The notes beneath the pieces were generated by a model. The model worked only from the letters and a program-made list of their open reading frames with translations, made no database searches and had not been told where the DNA came from. A program made the position numbers and the translations under genes. 64,000 nt of DNA from the human T2T-CHM13v2.0 reference genome, Homo sapiens. Where the stretch lies: NCBI GenBank assembly GCA_009914755.4, contig CP086569.2, positions 8,032,001-8,096,000 of the forward strand. Direction: 5' to 3'. The first letter of the stretch is position 1; every line of letters begins with the position of its first letter. Of the stretch, positions 21,801 through 48,825 are shown in pieces.

Positions 21801-22870
21801 TGTATGTTTTCTAATTATAGTCATTTTAACTGGAGTGGCTTGGTATCTTATTGTGGCTTTGATTTGCAGTTTTCTATGAATAAATAATGATGAGCATCTT
21901 TGCATGAACTTGGTCACTTTTGTCTTCTTTGGAGAAATGTCATTTAAGCTCTCTTGCCTATTATTAAATTTTGTGTTATTTTTGCTGTTAAGTTTGTTGT
22001 ATATTCTGTATCTTTTCCCTGTGTCATATGTATATTTTGCAAATTATTATTCTATGCTGAAAATTGTCCCTTTACTCTGCTATTTTTGCTATGTAAATAT
22101 TGTTTAGATTCTGGTGATTTCACTTGTCTGCTTTTGCTTTTGTTGCCTGTGCTTTTGAGGTCCGATTTAAAATATTTTTCCCTCTCCTATTTGGTAAATA
22201 ATTTCTCCATGTTTTATTCAAATACTTTTATAGGTGTCAGTTTTATATTTAAATCTTTTTTATTTTTATGTAAGTTCTTTTATGGTAACAGGTAGGCACC
22301 TAGTTGTTTTCATTTAATCAATTTTCCTTGACACTGTTCATTGAAACTACTGTCTTGCCTTAAATGCATACACTAAACAACTTAAAAATTACTTGGCAAT
22401 AGGTTTATTAACTGATTATTGTGATCACTGCATACTTTGGTCTATATGTCTGTTTTCCATGCCAATATCATTCTTTCTTGTTATTAGTTTTGTCATATAT
22501 TTTGAAGTCAGTTAGTCTGATGCTTTCAGCTTTATTTTTTTCACAAAATTTCTTTGGCTATTTGGGAAGTTATTTTGTTCCTTATAAATTTTAGGCCTGC
22601 TTTTTCCATTTCTGTGAAAAAAAAAAAGTCATTGGTGTTTTTGTAGGCTTTGCACTGCATCTGTAGATTGCTTTGAGTAGCATAGCCACTTTAATAATAT
22701 TTTTTATAACTCATGAGCAAAAAAATTGCTAAAATTTTTCATTTTTTTAGTTTCTTCATCAGTGTTGTATAATTTATAGTGTAGAGGGCGGTTTATCTTT
22801 TTAATTAAGTTTATGGCTAGCCACCTTTATCTTTTATTTTAGGTGCACTAAAATATTTGGAAAATTTTAA
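21801..22870 (-). mobile_element. Old L1 (L1M/L1PB-like) ORF2 fragment in antisense orientation, abutting the array boundary.
   Basis: 'cttggtatcttattgtggctttgatttgcagttttctatgaataaataatgatgagcatctttgcatg' and 'ccatttctgtgaaaaaaaaaaagtcattggtgtttttgtaggctttgcactgcatctgtagattgctttgagtagcatagccactttaataat' match the reverse complement of the L1 ORF2 region downstream of the RT domain. The sequence is highly diverged. Confidence 0.6.
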
Positions 22871-22889
22871 CATGCCTTTGTGATTAAAA

Positions 22890-44779: not shown

Positions 44780-47440
44780 GCCTAGATAAAACATCTATAG
44801 AACAGGTGTGAGAGACTTCAAGAATCTCTAGCCTAAAAGTTGGTATCATATTCCCCCAGAAAAAAGTCAATAAGCATTTTCACATGTGGCATTTTATTAT
44901 ATAATTTGCAACCCAAGATTACAACATATACAAAACATTAAGATAAGATGGCTCACTCTAAGATAAAAATAAATATGTAGAAATCAATGATAATAAATGG
45001 AGATGTAAAAATTACCTGAGAAAATTTCAATTAAAGTCTACATCTATTTTTAAAAGAAAAAAATAAATTACCCTAACAAATTAAAATTGCCACCTGAATG
45101 ATGCTTAATGAGTAAAACTGAAATAAAGAAAACAAACTGAAATAACAAATACGAAATTAACAAAATTATAAAAAGAACAAAAAATAAAATTTATGTAGTA
45201 GAAGTACAAAAAAGACTAATATGAACTTCAACATTATTAAAAAAAATAAGAAAATCAGGAAGCTCAGTAAATTTCAACCAACATTAACACAAAGAAATTT
45301 CTAACAAGACCCCAAATAAGAAATGCTTTGAAAGTCATATATAAGAAGAGAATCTTGAATGCAGGAAGAAAAAAAGAGATATGTTATTTATATGCATGCT
45401 TCTGCAAGTTTACCAGTAAGTTTATAAACATAAATCTTTCAGGAAGAAAGGAGTAGGATAACATACTTAAAACACTGAAGAAAAACTTCTGTTAGAAATG
45501 CCTATTCCTCAGTGCCAAAAAGTAGAACTAGCACTCAGACAAAGAATTTTCTCAGCAAGGCAATTTTGCTTTCTGTAGAAAGCTTGCTGCTCATCAGCAA
45601 TCCTGCCATGAAAGCACAATGAAACAGAAAGGCAGGAATATTTATCCTGTATGCGTTGGGTTCTTATTTCTGTTTCCTATCTCCATTAGTTTGAGCAGGA
45701 CATCACAGTCTAAGCTAAACCTGATTAGCTAACAACCTAAAACATTCCTAAATAGGTAAAGGCAATGAAGAACAAAGAAAAGGAGAAAGTTGCTTTTGAA
45801 AAGTCTTAGAGAAGTAATAACATTTCCAAATAAGAAAAGGGCATAAGCTGCAAACTGGGACATGCTTGAGCATGTACAGAACAAATCTCTTGTTGAAAGT
45901 CCAAGGGCATGGAATGTACTTATTCTTTATATATAACAGCTACATAGAATAGGGCTTAACAGAGAGTCAATAGCACAAAACAGGAAGGCTTTGAAGAAAT
46001 TTAATTTGTAAAAGAAAATATTATTTCTAACATTTATTATTTAAAAGAAGGAAAATTTTGATGAGAAACTTTTTACTTTTTACAAAGTCTAAGTAAGAAT
46101 ACTATATCCAGCAAAAGTATCCTTCAAAATGAAGGAGAAAATATCCAACTATATCATGATCTATATCAAGATCTAACCATGTCATCTCTTCAAGAGTCTC
46201 ACTTCAGACTTAATAAAAAAATAGACTGAAAATGGCAGGATAAAAAATACATGCCATGGAAGTGTTAACCAAATAAGAGGAGAAGAGGCAACAATTTATT
46301 AAATTGAAAACAGTCATATTTTGTAAAATTTGCTCTAAGTGAAAATTCACAAGAGACAAGTAGGACATTCAGTTATACTAAGAAAGTTCATTTACTGAGA
46401 TTCTATAAATATATGAGAGTTTTCCCAAAAACGTAAAATAAAACATTGACATAATTGAAGCAAAAATAGAAAACAATATAATAATGGAAGGATACATTTA
46501 TATCCCACTTTCAGTAATAAATAAAGCAAGACGGAATATCAATAAGGGAACACAAAGCTTGAATTCTCTATACAATATTTGTACCCGACAAATGTGTACA
46601 ACAATAGAATACATACTTTTTAATAGCTCATAGAATATTTTCCTAGATGGATTGTGTGTGACTCCATGAAAGAAGCATTAATGATTTTTAATTGAAATTT
46701 TACAGACAATTATTTATAGCCCAAATGGAATGAAACTAGAAATCAGTAATGGAAGAAAAGCTGAAAAAAAATTATAACAAATAACAACACAGTTTTTCTT
46801 TTTTCTTTTTTCTTAGATGCAATATCACTCTGTCACTAGGATGAAGTGCAGGGGCACAATCTCAGCTCACCGCAACCTCCACTTCCAGGTTCAGGCAATT
46901 CCCCTGCCTCAGCCTCTCCAGTAGCTGGAACTACAGGCACACACCACCATGCCCAGCTAATTGTGTGTATTTCAATAGCGGCAGGATTTCATCATGTTGG
47001 CCGATATGATCTCAATCTCCTGATCTGGCCATGGACCTTCCTTGGCCTTACAAAGTGATGGGATTACACGTATGAGTCACCAGGCCTGGCCAGTAAAGTT
47101 TTTTGAGCATACTCATTATCAAGGGTTGGAAGACATAATATTCTAAAAATGTCCATGCTGCTTAAAGTGATCCACACATTCAACAGGCCAATTTTCAATT
47201 TTAAATTAAAGTTTCCCAAAAATATAAATTAAAATAACCCAGAAAATTACATGAAAATCCTGGCAATCTTTAAAAGGAAGCCAAATATTGGAAGCATTAC
47301 ACTTAACAATTTCCAAACACAAAACAAACCTAAAGTAATCAAAACACTTGGTACCAGTACAAAGGTAGAACACGAAAGTAATGAAGCAGAATGCAGCACA
47401 GAAATAAACATTTGAATAGAGAGGAGAGACATACCACCTA
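44780..47440 (+). mobile_element. Old L1 (L1M-like), sense strand, covering the ORF1 C-terminus through mid ORF2. It has a ~1.3-kb internal deletion at the site of an antisense Alu and is truncated at the array boundary.
   Basis: 46100 'ccagcaaaagtatccttcaaaatgaaggagaaaata' matches the ORF1 end. 46700 'ccaaatggaatgaaactagaaatcagtaatggaagaaaagctg' matches the ORF2 EN end. 47360 'cttggtaccagtacaaaggtagaacacgaaagtaatgaagcagaatgcagcacagaaataaacatttg' matches the ORF2 '...[23 protein letters not shown]' region. The 5' boundary (44780) is uncertain. Confidence 0.55.
46795..47092 (-). mobile_element. Full-length Alu in antisense orientation, nested in the old L1.
   Basis: 'ttttttcttagatgcaatatcactctgtcactaggatgaagtgcaggggcacaatctcagctcaccgcaacctccacttccaggttcaggcaattcccctgcctcagcctctccagtagctggaactacaggcacacaccaccatgcccagctaattgtgtgtatttcaatagcggcaggatttcatcatgttggcc...caggcctggcc'. 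Confidence 0.85.
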
Positions 47441-48825
47441 GGTTTTTCATTCAGCTGTATTTCACAATTCCTTTGGTAAGCAGGACCCAGGCAGGAGAGG
47501 AGAGTTATACCATTTAAACACTAATTTATGCGATATTTCAAAATTTTTTTCTGGAGGCAGAGAGGCCTGGAGGGACATGTAACCTAGCTGATAGAAGAAG
47601 AGATATGTGATAATATACCCTATTGACAGGACTCATGCAGAAGTATCACATTATTGTGATTCTGAGCCAGCATTACGTAAAAATGCTCCCGTGGAAAGGA
47701 ATTTGAGCCAAAAGACTCAACCTGGGTACTAGGCCCAGAAATATGACACAATCTCATCATCTTTGTAGGTGACAACGTTAACTTTTAGCTAAGTGTGTAT
47801 ATTAGAGTGACAATCTCACATGTTTGCTGCGACAATGTATGACCCTCTGCAACATCCAAGGGACTTATAAAACGTGCATAAGAGTTGCAAAGCTCTCTGA
47901 AGCCTACGTGCTGGTATGGACTCACAATCTTACGTATTATCTTAAACCCAGGTTTGATAGTTGACATCTCTCCTATAGGCAGGGTTAAGGAAAAAGACCC
48001 ATTATTATTTCTGTGGGCTGGGTTTAGAAATGACTGACCATCCCACTTGTGGCCAGAGCCACATATAAATTTCACAATTCCAACTTTGTGCTGTATTCCT
48101 GTGTTAGACTCTTGATCTTAACAGTGGGCATTGTAAATGTGGGATGGTGACAACTTTTAATTTCACCTGGGTTTGTAACCTAGAGCCCCAATCTGAAATT
48201 TTGGCCAGGCCCTGTTATGAAATTTTATAGCACCAAAGAGTTTATATGATATAAGTTAGTATTGTAAGCTTCTGTGAGGTTGTTACATACATGTAACCCA
48301 GGAGATTATCTATTCCTCCAAGCCTAACAATGAAAGGCAAAATATCTTCTATTGCCTGAATCCCAATATAAGTGTGAACATCATGTCTGTGAACTGAAGC
48401 AAGGTATAGGTCATAATCCCATATGCTGGCAAAAACTAGGCAGGAGGGTAACATCACTTAGATGCTGTGCCAGGCAATATGTTACATGCCTTCCTTAGGC
48501 AGGGCATAGGAAATTTGGTCATATTAGCTGGGTGCTGGACCTAGCAATATGACACCATCTCACATGTGGAAAAAACCCAGTCAAGTTATGGGAGCCAAAA
48601 CACCTACATAAAGAGACCAAGATATGTCAAAATACCTTCAGTGGCTCCAGCACAGGAGGACAGTCACATAAAAATGGTCCTGGACTGAGCAATATACAAT
48701 ATGCCATAAGTTCTTCTATATGCAGAAACAAAGCAGAAGAGTAACATCATCCGGGTACTGGGCCCTGCAGTAGGTCACAATTCCTGTTTTGTGAGAATGA
48801 CTTTGAAAAATGAGGAGATTCACAT

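What the first reader, a model, noticed from the sequence alone, without database searches (positions are those of the whole stretch)
21801..47444. A 25.6-kb island of non-satellite sequence inside the array, with old L1 debris on both sides and out-of-phase array edges
Both array blocks are in the same orientation, so the island sits inside a once-larger array or between two segmentally duplicated array blocks. Block 1 ends at a phase equivalent to X+0.54 kb. Block 2 begins at a phase equivalent to ~0.7 kb before a Z anchor. Removing the island would therefore not restore a continuous unit; about 2.3 kb of unit is unaccounted for. Both island edges are old L1 fragments: 21801–23330 (inverted pair) and 44780–47440 (sense). 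Either the satellite expanded over or into an old L1-rich region, or the island and its ZNF pseudogene were inserted by a duplicative event.
Basis: partly seen in the sequence, partly recalled or inferred. Interest (0 to 1): 0.5.

Follow-up and report, generated by a model that had tools for sequence, protein, structure and literature searches.

The report
ZNF gene fragment inside beta-satellite array
The 25.6-kb "island" is a real patch of ordinary, repeat-riddled DNA that carries the tail end of a dead ZNF91-family zinc-finger gene and sits between two blocks of one old beta-satellite-like array, which is the already described layout of primate zinc-finger gene clusters and not a new kind of element.

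Summary
A 71-bp monomer profile built from the array gives 262 hits. All are on the + strand and none lies between 21804 and 47412. The left edge is sharp at 21803/21804. In unit phase, block 1 stops at about position 1885 of a 4.9-kb unit and block 2 restarts at about 3779. At least six similar phase jumps occur inside the array itself.

The array is a diverged beta-satellite relative with a 4.9-kb unit and a four-unit super-repeat (D-A-B-C). That order continues across the island.

The two edge L1s are unrelated passengers. The left one is a 5'-inverted (twin-priming type) old L1, cut inside ORF2. The right one is the ancient antisense L1 of the last intron of ZNF91-family genes. It is colinear with two monkey paralogues right up to the junction.

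The island is a mosaic with at least three non-transposon breakpoints. It was most likely placed in a once-continuous array by non-homologous rearrangement. Beta-satellite blocks bounding ZNF91-family genes were described for 19p12 in 1998. Ordinary; low interest.

The parts
1..21803 (+). Array block 1. Diverged beta-satellite-like array made of 71-bp monomers in 4.9-kb units. Super-repeat order: D(1-1361) A(1353-6227) B(6224-11209) C(11150-13040) D(13062-18190) A(18211-21276).
   Evidence: Self-BLAST and phase map. Monomer HMM hits, all on +. Unit typing by per-segment identity.
21288..21803 (+). Out-of-phase 0.5-kb A-type piece at the end of block 1. It is a second copy of reference positions 1367-1885, following reference position 3132.
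   Evidence: It matches position 1367-1882 in every unit at 68-76% identity, and the paralogous position only weakly.
21807..22719 (-). Old L1, sense arm, ORF2 aa 804-1124. Its 3' end (the remaining ~150 aa of ORF2, the 3'UTR and the polyA tail) is missing, cut at the array junction.
   Evidence: tblastn with human ORF2p, 41% identity. DNA match to the L1PA-like copy in the same orientation. The ORF2p ruler was checked against PDB 8uw3_A.
22839..23171 (+). Inverted 5' arm of the same old L1 (ORF2 aa 599 to about 725). The arrangement is the twin-priming type.
   Evidence: tblastn. Inverted DNA match 22885-23167 to 34101-33812.
23514..28551 (+). Unclassified DNA bounded by a 0.4-kb direct repeat (23514-23920 and 28151-28551, 69% identical). 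This could be an old LTR pair.
   Evidence: Self-BLAST. Not followed further.
28787..29045 (+). AluJ-like element, 18% non-CpG divergence. It is the oldest near-complete Alu in the window.
30360..30584 (-). Partial Alu. About 23% non-CpG divergence over the 122 bp that align (30463-30584).
31842..35726 (-). Younger, 5'-truncated L1 (L1PA-like). ORF2 aa 68-1263, 77-87% amino-acid identity to human ORF2p.
35718..36012 (-). AluS-like element.
37383..37699 (+). Alu (S/Y-like) with a 13-bp target-site duplication.
39647..39936 (-). AluS-like element.
42089..42687 (+). Old L1 5' part: the end of ORF1 (aa 282-327) plus ORF2 aa 1-141. It is cut at its 3' side where it abuts the ZNF exon. This is an internal breakpoint of the island at 42688-42715.
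   Evidence: tblastn. Homology to the ZNF paralogues stops at 42716.
42716..43830 (-). Decayed terminal (zinc-finger) exon of a ZNF91-subfamily KRAB-ZNF gene. It has about 11-12 fingers with stops and frameshifts. A polypyrimidine tract and AG precede 'DIWPEHEIKDS'.
   Evidence: Translations. TRF 84-bp period. Best full-coverage protein hits are ZNF722/723/726/92/138/679/98/66/431/737/100/273-like. 67-68% DNA identity to the exons in L001 and L002.
43831..47412 (-). Remnant of the last intron of that gene. It contains the family's ancestral antisense L1 (on the window + strand, about 45239-47412, with an internal deletion). Two later Alus lie inside it (44420-44738 on +, 46794-47106 on -). No KRAB exons are present.
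   Evidence: Colinear homology to the last intron of colobus ZNF723-like (L001) and gelada ZNF726-like (L002), running up to 47409-47412. Spacing agrees after removing Alus: 2206 versus 2208 bp. KRAB search was negative. L1 hits.
47413..64000 (+). Array block 2. Order: tail of a B-type unit (47413-48486), C/B unit (48442-51058), D (52836-56195), A (56146-60989), B (60937-63735), start of C (63677-64000).
48826..49879 (+). Young twin-primed L1 inserted into the array. ORF2 aa 918-1034 is inverted; aa 1149-1275, the 3'UTR and the polyA tail are in sense. It has a perfect 20-bp target-site duplication (48806-48825 and 49880-49899). This is the positive control for what a true insertion into this array looks like.
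   Evidence: Array phase is continuous across it (reference 390 | 370).
51059..52835 (+). Older primate L1 3' part (ORF2 aa 688-1275 plus 3'UTR) lying at an array phase jump (reference 1527 to 1).
11390..12055 (-). Short, fairly young L1 3' fragment inside array unit C, lying at a phase jump (reference 251 to 3825). It is unrelated to the island-edge L1s.
   Evidence: 88% identical to the L1PA-like copy (31885-32182 to 11693-11993)..
9518..9816 (+). Alu insertion in array unit B. Array phase is continuous across it.
16781..17081 (+). AluS insertion in array unit D. Array phase is continuous across it (reference 3707 | 3708).

Best explanation
The island is non-functional, neutrally decaying DNA. 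It is a mosaic of about 20.9 kb of old L1- and Alu-rich sequence joined to a 4.7-kb, 5'-truncated, unprocessed fragment of a ZNF91-subfamily zinc-finger gene. That fragment consists of the terminal exon plus the last 3.6 kb of the final intron.

The mosaic lies inside what was most likely one continuous, diverged beta-satellite-type higher-order array. It got there by non-homologous rearrangement: a duplicative insertion, or a template switch, with loss of part of the array. It did not get there by retrotransposition. The event came after the four-unit super-repeat had been amplified.

The old L1s at the two edges were already part of the incoming DNA and were simply cut by the breakpoints.

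Shown directly: the absence of satellite in the island, the orientation of both blocks, the three breakpoints, the gene-fragment identity, and the unrelatedness of the two edge L1s. Inferred: that the array was once continuous, and the order of events.
For: (1) There are 262 monomer hits, all on +, and none in 21804-47412.

(2) Units fall into types that are 75-82% identical within a type and 66-73% between types. Their order is D A B C D A | island | (B tail) C D A B C, so the period-4 register continues across the island. Copies within a block are no more alike than copies in different blocks (76-79% in both cases). That pattern suggests one amplification burst in one array.

(3) Both outer junctions cut L1s inside ORF2 with their 3' sides facing the array: aa 1124 on the left and about aa 900 on the right. 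A third breakpoint at 42688-42715 cuts another L1 at aa 141. There is no target-site duplication or polyA tail. By contrast, a genuine L1 insertion in the same array has a perfect 20-bp target-site duplication and continuous array phase.

(4) 42716-47412 is colinear with the terminal exon and last intron of two Old World monkey ZNF91-family genes, right up to the junction. No KRAB exon is present in the window.

(5) The island holds older elements than the array does: very diverged L1s at about 41% amino-acid identity, and an AluJ-like copy. The array carries only Alu S/Y-like and primate-type L1 insertions.
Against: Register continuity has a chance probability of about 1 in 4. It also rests on reading the unit at 48442-51058 as type C, although its body is B-like. 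The first 0.65 kb of block 2 has no close relative in the window.

The gene fragment lies antisense to, and downstream of, the adjoining array. Short beta-satellite-like remnants lie in the same relative position upstream of the monkey paralogues. That fits an ancestral gene-next-to-array layout followed by deletion.

No donor locus, orthologue or second copy of any junction could be examined. The chromosomal position is unknown.
Confidence: 0.55

Rival explanations
1. Ancestral cassette plus deletions. The locus began as the standard head-to-tail unit of the ZNF91 cluster: beta-satellite block, 3' flank, complete ZNF gene, upstream region, next beta-satellite block. Later deletions removed the promoter, the KRAB exons, most introns and the edge of the upstream array (giving the junction at 47412). 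Another deletion removed the 3'UTR (giving the junction near 42700). Nothing was ever inserted into an array.
For: Beta-satellite blocks bounding ZNF91-family genes and an unprocessed pseudogene in 19p12 are the published architecture. This rests on my recollection of the abstract of Eichler et al. 1998, cited as ref. 89 in PMC8125562; the paper itself is not held. Array remnants lie 8-10 kb upstream of, and antisense to, the colobus and gelada paralogues. That is the same relative order and orientation as block 2 and the gene fragment here. Head-to-tail duplicons would predict two same-orientation blocks.
Against: It does not predict that the four-unit register carries on across the island. 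It does not predict that within-block and between-block copies are equally diverged. The 20.9 kb to the left of the exon shows no homology to the 10-kb 3' flanks of the two paralogues. The published blocks were described as inverted, whereas these are direct.
Confidence: 0.3
2. The satellite spread into or over a pre-existing L1-rich region from both sides.
For: The island's L1s and its AluJ-like copy look older than anything inserted in the array.
Against: Tandem amplification produces contiguous copies. Two independent fronts would not share unit types, a common register and equal divergence. The monomer orientation is identical on both sides.
Confidence: 0.07
3. The island grew purely by nested transposon insertions, starting from one L1 that landed in the array.
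For: At least 47% of the island is recognisable L1, Alu or gene-fragment sequence, and TE insertions into the array do occur.
Against: The outermost elements are cut inside ORF2, with their 3' ends missing and pointing outwards. There is no polyA tail and no target-site duplication, and array phase is not continuous. The island contains an unprocessed gene fragment with its intron. The two edge L1s overlap in ORF2 coordinates and lie in opposite orientation.
Confidence: 0.02
4. Assembly artefact: a false join of array and non-array sequence.
For: Arrays of this kind are hard to assemble. Read-level support cannot be examined here.
Against: Array copies are only 66-82% identical, so they are easy to assemble. 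The junctions are single and sharp. Divergence levels on both sides are in keeping with long residence together.
Confidence: 0.03

Closest known systems
Beta-satellite / ZNF91-family gene interspersion in the primate-specific KRAB-ZNF cluster at human 19p12 (Eichler et al. 1998, Genome Res 8:791)
   Same: A beta-satellite-type higher-order array in blocks of tens of kb (at least 21.8 and at least 16.6 kb here). The blocks flank a ZNF91-subfamily gene remnant that is unprocessed. The age is primate-level. Array remnants also lie next to ZNF723-like and ZNF726-like genes in Old World monkeys.
   Different: The two blocks are direct, not inverted. Only 4.7 kb of the gene survives. The spacer is 25.6 kb rather than a duplicon of about 150-180 kb. 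The chromosomal location could not be determined. The rs8105767 / ZNF208 primers, which resemble the same repeat, are not in the window.
Canonical beta satellite (Sau3A family, BSR; 68-bp monomer, e.g. the 4qA/acrocentric arrays)
   Same: Tandem monomers of about 70 bp. The window consensus is 79% identical (54/68) to the 68-mer as I recall it. Two published 4qA BSR primers match that recalled 68-mer at 33 of 35 positions. They also map onto the window consensus in the same order and spacing, more weakly (12/14 and 9/10 positions). Higher-order organisation is present.
   Different: The modal length is 70-71 bp. Only 10% of monomers keep a GATC (Sau3A) site. G+C is 40-42%, not about 53%. Copies are far more diverged (66-82%). 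Non-monomer stretches of 0.4-0.6 kb are interspersed within each unit.
L1 5' inversion by twin priming
   Same: The left-edge L1 and the young L1 at 48826-49879 each have an inverted upstream segment joined to a sense downstream segment with near-adjacent L1 coordinates. The young one also has a polyA tail and a 20-bp target-site duplication.
   Different: The left-edge copy has lost its 3' end to the array junction, so its polyA tail and target-site duplication cannot be checked.
Insertions of foreign sequence into satellite arrays with concordant flanking orientation (e.g. HSat1A arrays within alpha-satellite HOR arrays of chr3 and chr4 in T2T-CHM13; bioRxiv 10.1101/2021.07.12.452052)
   Same: The same logic applies: concordant strand of the flanking array argues for interruption of one array.
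   Different: Here the insert is ordinary gene and transposon DNA, not another satellite. The scale is kb, not Mb.

Membership tests
Beta satellite (Sau3A/BSR family) | Tandem monomers of about 68 bp | tested here: met
   262 monomer-HMM hits. Full-length hits are 67-76 bp with a mode of 70-71. Anchor spacing peaks at 70-71 bp.
Beta satellite (Sau3A/BSR family) | Sequence similarity to the beta-satellite consensus | tested here: inconclusive
   No reference consensus was available from a tool. The window consensus is 79% identical to a 68-mer recalled from memory (alignment score 35, against a shuffle maximum of 4). Two published BSR primers support that recalled sequence at 33/35 positions. 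The same primers map to window-consensus positions 12-25 and 47-56 in the same order. Primer 4qAe-f has 4 matches at 3 mismatches or fewer, against 0.13 expected. The other primer has none.
Beta satellite (Sau3A/BSR family) | A Sau3A (GATC) site in nearly every monomer | tested here: not met
   26 of 262 monomer hits contain GATC. GATC density is no higher in the array than in the island.
Beta satellite (Sau3A/BSR family) | G+C about 53% | tested here: not met
   The array is 40-42% G+C with CpG observed/expected of 0.11. This fits an old, decayed relative.
Beta satellite (Sau3A/BSR family) | Higher-order repeat organisation | tested here: met
   A 4.9-kb unit and a four-unit super-repeat.
19p12-type ZNF91 cluster architecture | The gene between the satellite blocks belongs to the ZNF91 subfamily | tested here: met
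   All primate hits that cover the spacer as well as the fingers are ZNF91-subfamily members, at 39-49% identity. The exon and intron are colinear with ZNF723-like and ZNF726-like loci.
19p12-type ZNF91 cluster architecture | Unprocessed (intron-containing) gene copy | tested here: met
   A splice-acceptor-like tract lies before the exon. About 3.4 kb (44054-47412) of colinear last-intron homology.
19p12-type ZNF91 cluster architecture | Inverted, symmetrical beta-satellite blocks bounding the gene | tested here: not met
   Both blocks are on the + strand, with no minus-strand monomer hit.
19p12-type ZNF91 cluster architecture | Location in human 19p12 | not testable with these tools
   No eukaryotic genome mapping is available. 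Window ORFs are not on record. ZNF91-subfamily members also lie at 7q11.21 and 4p16 (my own knowledge).
Retrotransposon (TPRT) insertion as the origin of the island | Target-site duplication, a 3' polyA tail at one end, and continuous host phase | tested here: not met
   No target-site duplication was found. Both edge L1s lack their 3' ends. Array phase skips 1.9 kb.
Two edge L1 fragments as parts of one element | Same orientation, complementary coordinates, same subfamily | tested here: not met
   They lie on opposite strands, overlap at ORF2 aa 804-886, and show no DNA similarity.
L1 twin-priming inversion (left-edge L1) | Inverted upstream segment next to a sense downstream segment with adjoining L1 coordinates | tested here: met
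   The inverted arm covers aa 599 to about 725. The sense arm covers aa 804-1124. They are 120 bp apart.

The most novel reading that the evidence does not exclude
The cluster of breakpoints could be the fossil of a single replication-based template-switching event (MMBIR/FoSTeS type). The path would be as follows. (1) Array unit A at reference position 3132. (2) A 0.5-kb back-copy of reference 1367-1885. (3) 20.9 kb of L1-rich DNA. (4) 4.7 kb of a ZNF gene. (5) Re-entry into the array at nearly the same position of the 71-bp monomer. That would show how gene fragments and beta satellite became interleaved while the ZNF91 cluster was built.
Probability: 0.15. Interest if true: 0.35.

Novelty: already known. 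Interest (0 to 1): 0.15.

Why it matters
It matters little beyond annotation. The window is a textbook-style example of the satellite-plus-zinc-finger-gene patchwork that accompanied the primate expansion of the ZNF91 family. The analysis shows that L1s at the edges of such islands need not have caused anything. If the junctions proved unique in the genome and datable in other primates, the locus could serve as one dated marker for when the array stopped being homogenised.

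Tried and rejected
- Tandem Repeats Finder sees nothing of the array, because copies are too diverged and the period exceeds 500. It finds only the 84-bp zinc-finger period.
- Rfam gives no hit.
- Pfam on stop-masked frames of both edges and of the L1 piece near 42 kb found nothing, even where tblastn finds L1. I dropped it for the rest of the island.
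- I first thought the edges might be in phase through paralogy between sub-blocks of the unit. That idea failed: 21288-21803 matches reference position 1367-1882 in every unit and the paralogous site only weakly.
- I considered the L1 fragment at 11390-12055 as the missing 3' end of the left-edge L1. It is 88% identical to the younger L1PA-like copy, so I rejected that.
- Direct alignment of the left-edge L1 against the right-edge region, and of the 42-kb L1 against the right-edge region, gave only noise.
- A tandem duplication of [array from B-tail ... gene intron] as the origin of the right junction was rejected. Block 2 does not repeat the end of block 1.
- The rs8105767 (ZNF208) primers, which resemble the repeat, are not in the window.
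- Exact-product look-ups of two window ORFs and of P0044 found nothing.
- Eichler 1998, Waye & Willard 1989, Cardone 2004 and Hamilton 2006 are not held in the paper library. No paper I read prints a beta-satellite consensus.
- L003 (orangutan) and L004 (gibbon) never appeared in the script folder. A simple pattern search shows no array in them.
- Target-site duplications of the older Alus are mostly too decayed to find.

Full report
**What the window is.** It is primate DNA. Alu sequences are present, rodent B1 is not, and L1PA-like ORF2 fragments occur. Self-comparison shows that 1-21.8 kb and 47.4-64 kb are filled by a tandem repeat. The unit is about 4.7-5.1 kb and copies are only 66-79% identical, all in one orientation. 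Tandem Repeats Finder and Rfam see nothing of it.

The unit itself is built mostly of monomers of about 71 bp. Three stretches of 0.4-0.6 kb give no monomer hit. A profile made from 36 clean monomers gives 262 hits in the window. All are on the + strand and none lies between 21804 and 47412.

**What the array is.**
- The monomer consensus is ATGTCACAATGTCCTCTGTGGGCAGGGCCCAGGCAGGAGAGTCACATCACCTAGGTGCTGGGCCCAGTAAT.
- It is 79% identical (54 of 68 positions) to the beta-satellite 68-mer as I remember it. The alignment score is 35 and no shuffle exceeds 4.
- That recollection is independently supported at 33 of 35 positions by two published 4qA beta-satellite primers from PMC4787827. The same primers map, more weakly, onto the window consensus in the same order and spacing.
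- SNP-assay primers for rs8105767 in ZNF208 at 19p12 (PMC5762523) look like the same repeat, but they are not in this window.
- Two classical hallmarks are missing. Only 10% of monomers keep a Sau3A site, and G+C is 40-42% rather than about 53%.

I therefore call it a diverged beta-satellite relative and not a canonical member.

**Edges and phase.** I used window 1353-6227 as the reference unit (4875 bp) and aligned the edges to five other copies.
- The left junction is at 21803|21804 and the right junction at about 47412|47413.
- Block 1 ends at reference position ~1885 and block 2 restarts at ~3779. About 1.9 kb of unit phase is skipped.
- The last 0.5 kb of block 1 is itself a displaced piece: reference 3132 is followed by 1367-1885.
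- The array contains at least six more jumps of this kind: 3527→1, 251→3825, 1527→1, 2616→4087, 2384→4466, and a 78-bp loss at 19912.
- Simple transposon insertions behave differently. Phase is continuous across both array Alus. The young twin-primed L1 at 48826-49879 has continuous phase and a perfect 20-bp target-site duplication.
- The island has neither a target-site duplication nor continuous phase.
- At the level of the 71-bp monomer the two flanks are nearly in register. Both junction points fall in the purine-rich linker. I estimate the chance of that at about 0.1 and treat it as unexplained.

**Higher-order structure.** Pairwise identities for seven segments of the unit sort the copies into types.
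- A: 1353-6227, 18211-21276, 56146-60989.
- B: 6224-11209, 49880-51058, 60937-63320.
- D: 1-1361, 13062-18190, 52836-56195.
- C: a short unit at 11150-13040.
- A distinctive 'B tail plus next start' junction occurs three times: 10811-11390, 48106-48788 and 63340-64000.

Identity is 75-82% within a type and 66-73% between types. The order along the window is D A B C D A | island | (B tail) C D A B C. So a four-unit super-repeat of about 17-20 kb keeps its register across the island, with the end of one A unit and most of one B unit missing. That is about 5.5-6.8 kb, depending on how the displaced 0.5-kb piece is counted.

Copies in the same block are no more alike than copies in different blocks. 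Both points favour a single array, amplified in one burst and interrupted later.

The caveats are these. A register match has a 1 in 4 chance. The unit I read as C has a B-like body. The first 0.65 kb of block 2 has no close relative in the window.

Left edge:
- It is an old L1, about 41% amino-acid identity.
- ORF2 aa 804-1124 lies on the - strand at 21807-22719.
- An inverted arm, aa 599 to about 725, lies on the + strand at 22839-23171.
- This is the twin-priming arrangement.
- The element lacks the last ~150 residues of ORF2, the 3'UTR and the tail. The array junction therefore cuts through it.

Right edge:
- It shows weak but colinear + strand hits. These are ORF1 aa 198-297, ORF2 aa 122-170, then, after an Alu at 46794-47106, ORF2 aa 805-886.
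- The last of these ends about 65 bp before the junction.

The two edge elements lie on opposite strands and overlap in ORF2 coordinates. They have no detectable DNA similarity. They are not halves of one element.

**The ZNF pseudogene and the right part of the island.**
- A decayed zinc-finger exon lies on the - strand at 42716-43830.
- A stitched translation finds, as its full-coverage primate hits, only ZNF91-subfamily proteins: ZNF722, 723, 726, 92, 138, 679, 98, 66, 431, 737, 100 and 273-like, at 39-49% identity.
- I fetched two such genes with their surroundings. L001 is colobus ZNF723-like and L002 is gelada ZNF726-like.
- The island is colinear with their terminal exon and last intron in five intron blocks plus the exon for L001, and two plus the exon for L002.
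- The homology reaches 47409-47412, which is exactly the array junction.
- After removing lineage-specific Alus, the spacing over the block nearest the exon is 2206 versus 2208 bp.

The right-edge 'L1' is therefore the ancient antisense L1 of that intron, inherited by the whole gene family. No KRAB exon exists anywhere in the window.

Homology to the paralogues stops at 42716. There the exon abuts another old L1 on the + strand (end of ORF1 plus ORF2 aa 1-141, 42089-42687), cut at its 3' side. That makes a third breakpoint. The 20.9 kb to its left shows no homology to the 10-kb 3' flanks of either paralogue.

**Rest of the island.** Recognisable parts are:
- an L1PA-like element at 31842-35726 on the - strand;
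- seven Alus;
- a 0.4-kb direct-repeat pair at 23514/28151.

About 13.7 of 25.6 kb stays unclassified, because no repeat library was available. The G+C-rich stretch at 40-42 kb is not a CpG island.

S-like copies show 12-16% at non-CpG sites and the AluJ-like copy 18%. The array carries only an S-like and a younger Y/S-like Alu, plus primate-type L1 pieces. The island's sequence therefore looks older than the array's present copies.

**Interpretation.** The island is not a transposon nest, and the L1s are passengers. It is a mosaic delimited by non-homologous breakpoints and it contains a 5'-truncated, unprocessed ZNF91-family gene fragment.

My best reading (0.55) is that this mosaic was placed into a once-continuous beta-satellite-type super-repeat array by a duplicative or template-switching rearrangement that also lost several kb of array.

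The main rival (0.3) is that a complete gene once lay between two array blocks, as in the published 19p12 architecture, and was whittled down by deletions. In its favour, short array remnants lie 8-10 kb upstream of, and antisense to, both monkey paralogues. That is the same relative arrangement as here.

Spreading of the satellite over an L1-rich region, pure nested insertion, and misassembly are all unlikely.

**Known or new.** Beta-satellite blocks bounding ZNF91-family genes and an unprocessed pseudogene at 19p12 were described by Eichler et al. in 1998. I know that paper from memory. It is cited for chromosome 19 beta satellite in PMC8125562, but it is not held in the library. This locus fits that picture, except that the blocks are direct rather than inverted and the gene remnant is small. 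Nothing suggests function. The finding is real but ordinary.

Noticed in passing
window 48806-49899: A young L1 with a 5' inversion. ORF2 aa 918-1034 is inverted; aa 1149-1275, the 3'UTR and the polyA tail are in sense. It is flanked by a perfect 20-bp target-site duplication (AAAAATGAGGAGATTCACAT). This is a textbook twin-priming insertion into the array.
   Followed up: yes
window 11390-12055 and 51059-52835: Two L1 fragments inside the array lie exactly at array phase jumps (reference 251 to 3825, and 1527 to 1). Two different copies of the same super-repeat position (unit C) have each lost several kb next to an L1. This may reflect L1-associated deletions.
   Followed up: partly
window 21769-21803 and 47413-47458: 4.9-kb unit phase skips 1.9 kb across the island, yet the 71-bp monomer phase is nearly continuous. 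Both junction points fall in the purine-rich linker of the monomer. The chance is roughly 0.1. Unexplained.
   Followed up: partly
Alus at 16781, 35718, 37383, 39647, 44420, 46794: AluS/Y-like copies show 12-16% divergence at non-CpG sites (18-24% overall). From my own knowledge of typical human AluS values, that is about twice the usual figure. The region may have an elevated substitution rate, so ages read from divergence would be overestimates.
   Followed up: partly
window 23514-23920 and 28151-28551: A 0.4-kb direct repeat, 69% identical and 4.6 kb apart. This could be the LTR pair of an old endogenous retrovirus-like element. No repeat library was available to name it.
   Followed up: no
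window 40000-42000: A stretch with 45-50% G+C inside an otherwise AT-rich island. CpG observed/expected is 0.00-0.07, so it is not a CpG island. It lies just upstream of the old L1 ORF1/ORF2 start at 42089-42687 and may be that element's 5' region. Unclassified.
   Followed up: partly
L001 723-1804 and L002 1-1000: Short beta-satellite-like remnants (10 and 4 monomer hits) lie 8-10 kb upstream of, and antisense to, ZNF723-like in red colobus and ZNF726-like in gelada. The repeat family therefore accompanies ZNF91-family genes in Old World monkeys as well.
   Followed up: partly
L001 28112-43772: In the colobus ZNF723-like gene, two intron blocks that are 142 bp apart in the window are 15.7 kb apart. 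That is a large lineage-specific insertion or rearrangement in that intron.
   Followed up: no
window 43034-43248: The only Tandem Repeats Finder hit in 64 kb (period 84 bp, 2.5 copies) is the zinc-finger repeat of the pseudogene, not a satellite.
   Followed up: yes
reference-unit positions 1250-1640, 2940-3530, 4200-4775 (window 2602-2992, 4292-4882, 5552-6127): Each 4.9-kb unit contains three stretches with no monomer hit. Two of them look like paralogues of each other by eye. Their origin is open: extremely decayed monomers, or a captured foreign sequence.
   Followed up: no
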